Shown here: positions 60,058 through 64,000 of the stretch, piece by piece
Layout of the letters: every line of letters starts with the position of its first letter
How positions within the stretch are numbered: position 1 is the first letter of the stretch
Source: Escherichia coli
GTDB taxonomy: Bacteria > Pseudomonadota > Gammaproteobacteria > Enterobacterales > Enterobacteriaceae
DNA length: 64,000 nucleotides
Assembly (NCBI RefSeq): GCF_030384885.1
Contig: NZ_CP128613.1
Reading direction: 5' to 3' (one strand)
Notes under the pieces: model-generated
The model's input: only the letters and a program-made list of their open reading frames with translations
What the model was told of the DNA's origin: nothing
Databases searched by the model: none
Position numbers and translations under genes: made by a program

Positions 60058-62292
<2,235 letters not shown>

Positions 62293-62565
62293 TTATAATT
62301 GAATTAATCCACGGATGCGATAGTTGAGATCTTACATATTGTTGGTTAAAGAGATGTAGATCAAATTGATCGTAATTAAGACTTTTTGATTATGTCCGAT
62401 TTCGGACAAATGCTTTATAAAAAAGGTTTTAGCTTCGTAAGCTTCAAGAAATGAGGGAGAAAACAAGGCTGACTACCTTATTTTCTCACTCGCATTTCGA
62501 GGCAGCATTTTGTGCTCTGTTTAAAATTTGTGATCACAGTGTGATTTTCACAAAAGGCGCACTAT

Positions 62566-63459
<894 letters not shown>

Positions 63460-63545: not shown

Positions 63546-63808
63546 GAAGGGCGTCAACCGAAAAATGACCAATGATGGTGAGGAAAAATCAGGGAAGATG
63601 AAAAAAATTCAGGATAAAGGCCAAAGTTCCTCGTACCTGAACATGTGGAATATACCTCATTTAAGATGATATTTATTTGTTTAATTATTTTTTCTATTAA
63701 CCGGTGCAACGAGTGTTAAAGCGTGTAATTTTAGGATTATATCAATAGTCACGGTTATACAAACAGTGATAATTTATGAAATAATTTTATTTACCAGAGG
63801 AATAGCGC

Positions 63809-64000
63809 ATGTATCTTAATACTCAAGTTCAATATAATAAGTTAAATAAAGATGAAAAAAAGATCCTGTTGTTACAAAAGCTAGCCCATTTAACTGATTT
63901 TACTTTTGACAGAATAGAGACATTTTCAGCATTTGGACAATCTACTGAAACAGGTGTTTTTAAATATAAAGATGGCAATGAATTTGTTGTTGTCCCCGGG
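63809..64000 (+). CDS. Hypothetical protein, N-terminal fragment (runs off the window); AT-rich, probably accessory
   Basis: ATG at 63809 with AGAGGA Shine-Dalgarno 8 nt upstream; open for 64 codons to the window end (MYLNTQVQYNKLNKDEKKILLLQKLAHLTDFTFDRIETFSAFGQSTETGVFKYKDGNEFVVVPG); base composition and codon usage are markedly AT-rich relative to the rest of the window. No family recognised. Confidence 0.4.
   Translation, partial: MYLNTQVQYNKLNKDEKKILLLQKLAHLTDFTFDRIETFSAFGQSTETGVFKYKDGNEFVVVPG

What the first reader, a model, noticed from the sequence alone, without database searches (positions are those of the whole stretch)
62500..62565. Palindrome-rich AT stretch immediately downstream of metF, far upstream of katG
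Directly after the metF stop lies ttgtgatcacagtgtgattttcacaaaa, containing overlapping TGTGA/TCACA palindromes (tgtgatcaca and tgtgattttcaca). It lacks the GC stem expected of an intrinsic terminator and resembles half-sites of a CRP/FNR-type or other dimeric regulator; it could act on katG or on metF 3' end formation. The remainder of the katG upstream region (62239-62500) also holds short inverted repeats, such as gtccga-ttt-cggac near 62393-62406.
Basis: seen in the sequence. Interest (0 to 1): 0.2.

Follow-up and report, generated by a model that had tools for sequence, protein, structure and literature searches.

The report
Decaying palindrome cluster after metF
The palindromes right after the E. 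coli metF gene are real and non-random, but they are not a CRP, FNR or OxyR site or a working terminator; they open an Escherichia-only, fast-evolving spacer that replaced the normal metF terminator, and the finding is essentially ordinary.

Summary
TGTGATCACA (62529-62538) and TGTGA-TTT-TCACA (62540-62552) lie 14-37 nt after the metF stop. Four such pentamers within 24 nt is unique in the window and absent from shuffles. The regulator reading is not supported. No half-site pair has CRP spacing (best 7 of 10, the background level). The FNR site backed by ChIP-seq is TTAATTACGATCAA at 62366-62379, and the OxyR match is at 62298-62334. The perfect 10-bp palindrome is a minority allele (480 of 5426 E. 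coli genomes). K-12, O157, B2-type and E. albertii alleles each break an arm without compensation. The RNA hairpin is weak (-8 kcal/mol) and falls to -2.8 and -1.7 in O157 and E. albertii. The motif opens a single-copy, AT-rich segment of about 190 bp (62375-62565) found only in Escherichia. Where katG is adjacent, most related genera carry a canonical GC-stem/T-run terminator directly after metF. No Escherichia hairpin scores as a terminator. Most likely this is weakly constrained metF 3'UTR/spacer sequence, at most a leaky pause hairpin. One point is unexplained: the two TCACA repeats and the next 17 nt (TTTAAACAGAGCACAAA) never vary. Interest is low.

The parts
62566..63456 (-). metF coding sequence (methylenetetrahydrofolate reductase); stop codon at 62566-62568
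   Evidence: ORF list. RefSeq annotation of the 100%-identical strain 2013C-4282 and of K-12.
62527..62556 (.). The flagged palindrome cluster. In the metF sense it reads TTTTGTGA-AAA-TCACA-C-TGTGA-TCACA-AAT. On the + strand, TGTGATCACA is 62529-62538 and TGTGATTTTCACA is 62540-62552.
   Evidence: The cluster is unique in the window and absent from shuffles. The RNA hairpin is -8.0 kcal/mol, and -2.8 and -1.7 in O157 and E. albertii.
62501..62526 (.). The best-conserved block of the Escherichia-specific segment (sense TTTAAACAGAGCACAAAATGCTGCC). No function is assigned.
   Evidence: 1 of 26 columns varies among 11 E. coli alleles, with mean pairwise difference 0.007. The first 17 nt are identical in E. 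albertii.
62446..62500 (-). Strong imperfect hairpin in the metF 3'UTR, with a 13-bp core at 62457-62487 and no U-tract after it
   Evidence: Terminator-like hit. Energy is -20 to -25.5 kcal/mol in all 11 E. coli alleles and -9.6 in the aligned E. albertii stretch. There is no real covariation. The d-score is -42 to -56.
62375..62565 (.). Escherichia-specific, AT-rich (36% GC), single-copy spacer segment. It occupies the place of the canonical metF terminator seen in other genera.
   Evidence: Downstream sequences of 80 metF loci; alignment A2; present once in 5425 of 5426 E. coli genomes; no phage hit, and the only plasmid-collection hits are E. coli records of 1.0-4.9 Mb; GC content.
62390..62425 (.). 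Second block that is similar in E. albertii: a T-run followed by the inverted repeat TGTCCGAAATCGGACA (62393-62408)
   Evidence: E. albertii differs from K-12 at 4 of 36 positions, but 11 of 36 columns vary within E. coli. The arms are altered in B2-type alleles. The d-score is negative on both strands.
62366..62379 (-). FNR site TTAATTACGATCAA (9 of 10 to TTGAT-N4-ATCAA). It is the orthologue of the K-12 site under the FNR ChIP-seq peak assigned to katG.
   Evidence: Consensus scans. Myers 2013, PMC3688515: peak summit 4131675 and PWM site TTAATTAAGATCAA at 4131717, mapped onto the window.
62298..62334 (-). Best OxyR-consensus match in the spacer (11 of 16), in the invariant katG promoter region
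   Evidence: 0 of 60 columns vary among E. coli in 62280-62339. That this is the footprinted katG OxyR site is from my own knowledge (Toledano 1994).
60058..62238 (-). katG coding sequence (catalase-peroxidase HPI), ATG at 62236-62238
   Evidence: ORF list and translation; RefSeq annotation.

Best explanation
The palindrome cluster is the first ~30 nt of an Escherichia-specific, AT-rich segment of about 190 bp in the metF 3'UTR/spacer. In the Escherichia lineage this segment took the place of the canonical intrinsic terminator that most related genera with the same metF-katG arrangement keep directly after the metF stop. The cluster is not the site of a dimeric CRP/FNR/OxyR-type regulator. On the metF transcript it can form only a weak AU-rich stem-loop followed by four U. 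That could act at most as a leaky pause or partial terminator, and only in the alleles that still pair. The arms are decaying by uncompensated substitutions. Shown here: the lineage restriction, the loss of the canonical terminator, the weak and unconserved pairing, the absence of CRP/FNR/OxyR geometry, and the location of the real FNR and OxyR sites elsewhere in the spacer. Inferred: metF transcripts in Escherichia either end diffusely (Rho or exonuclease trimming, possibly back to the strong hairpin at 62446-62500) or read through towards katG, and the cluster itself has little or no function.
For: Relatives carry GC-stem plus T-run terminators within 60 nt of the metF stop (33 of 50 katG-adjacent loci by a strict criterion). 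Both Escherichia loci and the window have none anywhere in the spacer. Homology to Citrobacter and Salmonella resumes only at GATCAATTTGATCTACATC, about 62373. d-scores are -12 to -70 for every Escherichia hairpin and -6 to +44 for the relatives. The palindrome hairpin is -8.0 kcal/mol with z = -1.3, and drops to -2.8 in O157 and -1.7 in E. albertii. The perfect TGTGATCACA is present in only 480 of 5426 genomes, AGTGATCACA in about 4057 and GTGTTCACA in 759. CRP-spaced matches are at background level. The FNR and OxyR sites map 150-200 nt away. There is no Rfam family, no conserved ORF, no phage or true plasmid relative, and no standout sigma70 promoter. No Term-seq 3' end is listed in the spacer in the Adams 2021 supplements.
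Against: The cluster is far from random. The palindrome block and the 26 nt after it are better conserved than the rest of the Escherichia-specific segment (pairwise difference 0.035 and 0.007, against 0.09-0.15; E. albertii differs at 3 of 30 positions). All five substitutions seen fall in the TGTGA arms. The two TCACA pentamers, 11 bp apart, never change. That hints at some constraint this explanation does not account for. The negative Term-seq result is weak, because katG also has no listed 3' end.
Confidence: 0.55

Rival explanations
1. The conserved TCACA-N6-TCACA direct repeat, rather than the palindrome, is a DNA site for a protein that binds tandem repeats one helical turn apart. An OmpR/PhoB-family response regulator would fit; the CreB 'cre tag' TTCAC-N6-TTCAC is the closest consensus I know.
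For: The two TCACA pentamers are invariant in 12 Escherichia alleles, while every TGTGA arm is hit. Exact TCACA-N6-TCACA is expected 0.15 times per 64 kb. The cre-tag match is 8 of 10. By eye on alignment A3, the B2-type allele GTGTTCACA gives a perfect second TTCAC, so 9 of 10.
Against: An 8 of 10 match to a 10-base consensus is common by chance; the same-sized CRP pattern gives 20-27 hits per window at two or fewer mismatches. No paper links CreBC to katG or metF beyond co-mention. No promoter is known next to the site. The asymmetry test is post hoc (p about 0.013 before any correction).
Confidence: 0.1
2. It is an RNA element of the metF 3'UTR: a single-stranded A/U- and CA-rich stretch that serves as an RNase E entry site, an Hfq or ProQ contact, or part of a Rho loading region, and so sets metF mRNA decay or termination.
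For: The constraint is strand-asymmetric. The position is immediately after the stop codon, and a stable hairpin lies 30 nt downstream. No intrinsic terminator is present, so some factor-dependent process must end or trim the transcript. Rho-dependent regions are recorded within metF on both strands (Adams 2021).
Against: The C/G ratio is about 1.0-1.1 across the block, so there is no rut-like C-over-G bias. No Term-seq 3' end is listed in the spacer. There is no Rfam hit. No RIL-seq or CLIP dataset was examined here.
Confidence: 0.15
3. The conserved block is an antisense promoter on the window's + strand, with -10 TAAAAT at 62522-62527 and a weak -35 GAGGCA at 62499-62504. The palindrome would be its start region, producing an antisense RNA across the metF 3' end.
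For: TAAAAT and its 17-nt spacer are identical in all 11 E. coli alleles and read TAAATT in E. albertii. Adams 2021 lists a Rho-terminated antisense transcript inside metF at 4132920(-), which must start downstream of that point.
Against: The promoter score (5.2 bits) is no better than several other positions in the spacer, and the consensus scan found no promoter. No TSS could be retrieved for the spacer from the datasets held. The -35 matches 3 of 6 and is worse in E. albertii.
Confidence: 0.08
4. It is a CRP- or FNR-type dimer site that regulates katG.
For: TGTGA/TCACA are the CRP half-site pentamers, and four occur together. FNR does occupy this spacer in vivo in K-12.
Against: The half-site spacings are 0, 1, 3 and 14 bp, never 6. 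The best CRP-spaced match is 7 of 10, equal to unrelated positions. The FNR site is elsewhere. The arms are not conserved. The site is 195 nt upstream of the OxyR site and 291 nt from the ATG. No CRP ChIP or SELEX report was found for this spacer.
Confidence: 0.03

Closest known systems
Rho-independent (intrinsic) terminator, as found after metF in Citrobacter, Salmonella, Enterobacter, Leclercia and Pseudocitrobacter
   Same: It has the same position directly after the metF stop, and a stem-loop followed by a short U run (UUUU).
   Different: The stem is AU-rich (-7 to -8 kcal/mol over 26 nt, against -10 to -13 over 16-22 nt in the relatives). There are only four U. The d-score is -33, against -6 to +44. 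Pairing is lost in O157 and E. albertii. No 3' end is mapped there.
CRP binding site (TGTGA-N6-TCACA)
   Same: It contains perfect TGTGA and TCACA pentamers in inverted orientation.
   Different: The spacing is wrong (0, 1, 3 or 14 bp). It is not positioned relative to any promoter. The arms vary within the species.
FNR site of the katG upstream region (Myers 2013)
   Same: It lies in the same spacer, and FNR is a CRP-family dimer that recognises an inverted repeat.
   Different: The occupied site is TTAAT-N4-ATCAA at 62366-62379, not the flagged palindrome. The palindrome has no TTGAT/ATCAA half-sites.
CreB 'cre tag' and other OmpR/PhoB-type direct-repeat sites
   Same: It is a direct repeat of a pentamer with 11-bp periodicity, ATCAC-N6-ATCAC against TTCAC-N6-TTCAC.
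   Different: The match is only 8 of 10. There is no adjacent promoter and no experimental link. The resemblance rests on a consensus recalled from memory.

Membership tests
CRP binding site | Inverted TGTGA / TCACA half-sites separated by 6 bp | tested here: not met
   The best N6-spaced match in the flagged stretch is 7 of 10, with one perfect half only. Nothing in the spacer matches at two or fewer mismatches. The window-wide count of 20 compares with 26.6 expected.
CRP binding site | Centred at a class I/II distance from a promoter it controls | tested here: not met
   The site is 14-37 nt after the metF stop, 195 nt upstream of the OxyR site (62298-62334) and 291 nt from the katG ATG. No promoter-like site lies next to it.
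CRP binding site | Half-sites conserved in orthologous regions | tested here: not met
   The perfect palindrome is in 480 of 5426 genomes. Arms are broken in the K-12, O157, B2-type and E. albertii alleles. The segment is absent outside Escherichia.
CRP binding site | In vivo or in vitro occupancy by CRP | not testable with these tools
   Literature searches returned no CRP ChIP or SELEX hit for the metF-katG spacer. This is absence of a report, not a measurement.
FNR binding site | TTGAT-N4-ATCAA inverted repeat | tested here: not met
   No FNR-like match lies in 62500-62565. The spacer's best match (9 of 10) is at 62366-62379.
FNR binding site | FNR ChIP-seq occupancy | tested here: not met
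   Myers 2013 places the peak summit at 4131675 and assigns the PWM site TTAATTAAGATCAA at 4131717. These map 110-170 nt from the K-12 palindrome.
Intrinsic terminator | Stable GC-rich stem-loop | tested here: not met
   -7.3 to -8.9 kcal/mol, z = -1.3, 33% GC. Relatives fold at -10 to -13 kcal/mol over shorter stems.
Intrinsic terminator | U-tract immediately 3' of the stem | tested here: inconclusive
   UUUU follows the stem and is then followed by AAAC. The T-tail score is 3.1, against 2.7-5.3 in the relatives. The overall d-score is -33.5. The formula is recalled from d'Aubenton-Carafa 1990, so it is used only for relative comparison.
Intrinsic terminator | Base pairing maintained in evolution | tested here: not met
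   Substitutions in O157 and E. albertii break the stem without compensation, giving -2.8 and -1.7 kcal/mol.
Intrinsic terminator | Mapped RNA 3' end at the U-tract | tested here: inconclusive
   No 3' end at K-12 coordinates 41334xx-41338xx appears in the Adams 2021 Term-seq tables. katG also has none listed, so sensitivity is limited.
OxyR binding site | Four ATAG/CTAT elements at 10-bp spacing | tested here: not met
   The best match (11 of 16) is at 62298-62334. Nothing in the flagged stretch ranks among the top matches.
OmpR/PhoB-type direct-repeat site (CreB cre tag) | TTCAC-N6-TTCAC direct repeat upstream of a regulated promoter | tested here: inconclusive
   8 of 10 at 62530-62545, and 9 of 10 in the B2-type allele as read from alignment A3. 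The repeat core is invariant. No adjacent promoter and no literature link exist.

The most novel reading that the evidence does not exclude
When the Escherichia lineage lost the canonical metF terminator, it gained a lineage-specific element consisting of the invariant TCACA-N6-TCACA repeat plus TTTAAACAGAGCACAAA. This element would be bound by a tandem-repeat DNA-binding regulator or by an RNA-binding factor. It would control read-through from the MetJ-regulated metF into katG, or the decay of metF mRNA, and so couple methionine/one-carbon status to peroxide defence.
Probability: 0.08. Interest if true: 0.45.

Novelty: not a real feature. Interest (0 to 1): 0.12.

Why it matters
It matters little as a regulatory discovery. 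The palindromes can be removed from the list of candidate CRP/FNR/OxyR sites for katG. The experimentally supported FNR and OxyR sites lie elsewhere in the same spacer. The one modest point of interest is evolutionary. Escherichia, unlike most related genera with the same metF-katG arrangement, has no recognisable intrinsic terminator between metF and katG, and carries instead a fast-evolving, lineage-specific insert of about 190 bp. That raises a testable question: do metF transcripts read through into katG in E. coli? It also shows how a statistically striking palindrome can be a decaying relic rather than an operator.

Tried and rejected
- **Rfam:** an E-value scan of 62150-62750 gave only sub-threshold eukaryotic snoRNA and miRNA noise.
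- **Coding:** the 58-aa antisense ORF (62451-62627) loses its start or frame in three E. coli alleles and in E. albertii. The sense ORFs, including a 19-aa GTG-start ORF inside the palindrome, are not conserved.
- **Mobile-element origin:** there was no phage hit. The plasmid-collection hits are E. coli records of 1.0-4.9 Mb. No viral contig carries the pentamer architecture. The segment is single-copy in E. coli.
- **Promoters:** the consensus scan found none, and my own sigma70 scoring gave nothing above about 6 bits on either strand.
- **Rho loading site:** the C/G ratio is about 1 over the block.
- **Sigma54:** the gSELEX RpoN peak (Shimada 2021) is centred near the metF stop, but the only good motif is inside metF, 137 nt upstream (Bonocora 2015). 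By eye I found no GG-N10-GC arrangement in the palindrome.
- **Other consensus sites:** Fur, LexA, MetJ and IHF consensus scans found nothing notable in the flagged stretch.
- **Big hairpin covariation:** only one of 20 pairs changes on both sides, and the covariation term is not supportive.
- **Experimental 3'-end and TSS tables:** Adams 2021 was searched by gene name and by coordinate, with no entry in the spacer. Dar & Sorek 2018 and Conway 2014 have no supplements held as text. SMRT-Cappable-seq, Cappable-seq and Kim 2012 gave no hits. Thomason 2015 is not held.
- **CreBC literature link:** the search returned co-mentions only.

Full report
**Where the finding sits.** The window is E. coli. 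The region 62200-62620 is 100% identical to strain 2013C-4282, and 5419 of the 5425 matching complete genomes are 90-99% identical to it. Both genes are on the minus strand: metF is 62566-63456 and katG is 60058-62238. The spacer is 62239-62565. In the gene orientation, the flagged stretch is the first sequence transcribed after the metF stop.

**Observation.** TGTGATCACA is at 62529-62538 (one match, 0.09 expected). TGTGA-TTT-TCACA is at 62540-62552. Read in the metF sense, the architecture is TGTGA-AAA-TCACA-C-TGTGA-TCACA. Four such pentamers in 24 nt occur once in the 64-kb window, and never in 300 whole-window or 5000 spacer dinucleotide shuffles. The pattern is real and non-random. The stretch is 33% GC, against 52% for the window.

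**Regulator hypotheses.**
- **CRP:** this needs TGTGA-N6-TCACA. The spacings here are 0, 1, 3 and 14 bp. The best N6-spaced alignment scores 7 of 10, equal to unrelated positions in the spacer. Across the window, matches with two or fewer mismatches number 20 against 26.6 expected, and none lies in the spacer.
- **FNR:** Myers et al. 2013 (PMC3688515) report an FNR ChIP-seq peak assigned to katG, with its summit at 4131675 in old K-12 coordinates. Their supplement gives the PWM site as TTAATTAAGATCAA at 4131717. Mapped onto the window, this is TTAATTACGATCAA at 62366-62379, a 9 of 10 match about 150 nt from the palindrome.
- **OxyR:** the best consensus match (11 of 16) is at 62298-62334, in the promoter region that is invariant among E. 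coli.
- **Other consensus sites:** Fur, LexA, MetJ and IHF show nothing notable in the flagged stretch.
- **Sigma54:** RpoN holoenzyme gSELEX (Shimada 2021) gives a peak centred near the metF stop. The only good sigma54 motif is TTGGCGCGAATATTGCC inside metF, 137 nt upstream, which is the ChIP site of Bonocora 2015.

**Conservation within Escherichia.** K-12 reads CAGTGATCACA, so the 10-bp palindrome is already broken there. I counted alleles with 33-mer queries that need an exact 28-mer spanning the variable base.
- The window allele is in 480 of 5426 genomes.
- The K-12 allele is in 4057 genomes. Of these, 325 carry one end mismatch, which fits the O157-type TATGA allele.
- The B2-type allele GTGTTCACA, which also destroys the GATC, is in 759 genomes.

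A 12-allele alignment shows five independent substitutions, all in the TGTGA arms and none compensated. They are TATGA in O157, TGTAA and TGCGA in E. albertii, AGTGA in K-12, and TGTGT in the B2-type alleles. The predicted hairpin is -8.0 kcal/mol in most alleles (z = -1.3 against shuffles) and collapses to -2.8 in O157 and -1.7 in E. albertii. Neither a palindromic operator nor an RNA stem is being maintained.

**What the surroundings show.** I fetched 80 metF loci from other species. In 50 of them katG follows metF within 600 nt. Citrobacter, Salmonella, Enterobacter, Leclercia, Pseudocitrobacter and others have a GC-stem plus T-run terminator directly after the metF stop, for example GCCCTCTTCGGAGGGCTTTTTTTT. 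Their spacer to katG is about 170 bp shorter. By a strict criterion (hairpin of -9 kcal/mol or stronger, with a T-rich tail, starting within 60 nt), 33 of the 50 have such a terminator. E. coli, E. albertii and the window have none anywhere in the spacer. Homology between Escherichia and the other genera resumes only at GATCAATTTGATCTACATC, about 62373.

The segment 62375-62565 is therefore Escherichia-specific. It is single-copy, present in 5425 of 5426 E. coli genomes, and unusually variable: most genomes are 90-95% identical to this allele and 658 are 80-90% identical. It has no relatives among phages, true plasmids or viral contigs.

A classical terminator discriminant gives -12 to -70 for every Escherichia hairpin and -6 to +44 for the relatives' terminators. 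I recalled the formula from memory, so I use it only for relative comparison. The strongest structure in the segment is an imperfect hairpin at 62446-62500, at -20 to -25.5 kcal/mol in all E. coli alleles. It has no U-tract, shows no real covariation, and is replaced by different hairpins in E. albertii.

**Other readings tested.** There is no Rfam family. No ORF is conserved on either strand. No sigma70 promoter stands out. The C/G ratio is about 1, so nothing suggests a Rho loading site. The Adams 2021 Term-seq tables list no 3' end in the spacer, by gene name or by coordinate. They do list Rho-dependent regions inside metF on both strands. This negative result is weak, because katG has no listed 3' end either.

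**Best explanation.** The palindromes are the opening part of a lineage-specific, weakly constrained metF 3'UTR/spacer that replaced a canonical terminator. On the RNA they form at most a leaky AU-rich hairpin followed by four U. There is no evidence that they are a regulator site (confidence 0.55). The loss of the terminator, the decay of the arms and the location of the real FNR and OxyR sites are shown. How metF transcripts actually end is inferred; the options are diffuse or Rho-dependent termination, trimming to the 62446-62500 hairpin, or read-through into katG.

**Residual puzzle.** The palindrome block and the 26 nt after it are better conserved than the rest of the Escherichia-specific segment. 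Pairwise differences are 0.035 and 0.007, against 0.09-0.15 elsewhere. E. albertii differs at 3 of 30 positions in the block, against about 45% in the hairpin region. The two TCACA pentamers are a direct repeat one helical turn apart. Exact TCACA-N6-TCACA is expected 0.15 times per window, and these pentamers never change. The chance that all five substitutions fall in the 10 TGTGA positions out of 24 is 0.013, a post hoc figure.

This leaves room for three rivals:
- a tandem-repeat DNA-binding protein; the CreB cre tag matches 8 of 10, and 9 of 10 in the B2-type allele;
- a 3'UTR RNA element;
- an antisense promoter using the invariant TAAAAT at 62522-62527.

None has direct support, and the literature gave no link.

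**Verdict.** The CRP/FNR-type interpretation is not supported. The remark about the missing GC stem is correct and is explained by lineage-specific loss of the terminator. Interest is low.

Noticed in passing
window 62366-62379 (minus strand): TTAATTACGATCAA is the orthologue of the K-12 FNR site under the katG ChIP-seq peak (Myers 2013). Its left half (TTAAT) lies in the Escherichia-specific segment and its right half (ATCAA) in the part conserved with other genera. The site therefore seems to have been created by the lineage-specific sequence. E. albertii has TTATT-CACG-ATCAA, with two mismatches.
   Followed up: partly
window 62686-62702 (minus strand, inside metF): The K-12 intragenic sigma54 ChIP site TTGGCGCGAATATTGCC (Bonocora 2015, IS48) reads TGGGCGCAAATATCGCG in this strain. 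Synonymous changes turn the -12 element TTGC into TCGC. The same changes create a Chi octamer GCTGGTGG at 62700-62707 on the minus strand, which K-12 lacks.
   Followed up: partly
window 62779-62806 (minus strand, inside metF): This is the orthologue of the intragenic FliA (sigma28) ChIP site of K-12 (TAAACAGGCGAAGAAATTTGCCGATATG; Fitzgerald 2014). Here the -10 element reads GCCGACAT instead of GCCGATAT.
   Followed up: no
window 62446-62500 (minus strand): A strong hairpin (-20 to -25.5 kcal/mol) is kept in all sampled E. coli alleles. It has no U-tract and no covariation. E. albertii has different hairpins and a 12-nt insertion at this place. It may be a 3' exonuclease barrier for metF mRNA.
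   Followed up: partly
window 62390-62425: A T-run followed by the palindrome TGTCCGAAATCGGACA. In K-12 this reads TGTCCGAATTCGGACA, a perfect 16-mer containing an EcoRI site. It is similar in E. albertii but rearranged in B2-type alleles (TCTGCCGAAATCAGACA). It was flagged as terminator-like on the + strand, where no gene would need it.
   Followed up: partly
window 63600-64000, and L002 1-1812: Upstream of metF this strain carries AT-rich DNA with an ORF start at about 63810 (+ strand). In the identical strain 2013C-4282, a hypothetical protein and a PLP-dependent aminotransferase-family gene are annotated there. From memory, K-12 has metL directly upstream of metF, so this looks like a strain-specific insertion.
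   Followed up: no
hit H30 (NZ_CP122620.1, ETEC4090): In this genome the 421-nt query matches in two separate places, with only 56% covered by the best one. This suggests that the metF-katG spacer is interrupted, perhaps by an insertion sequence.
   Followed up: no
K-12 coordinates 4132762(+) and 4132920(-), Adams 2021 supplement 2: Rho-dependent termination regions are recorded inside metF on both the sense and antisense strands. The antisense transcript must begin downstream of that point, inside metF or in the spacer. Its start site is unknown.
   Followed up: partly
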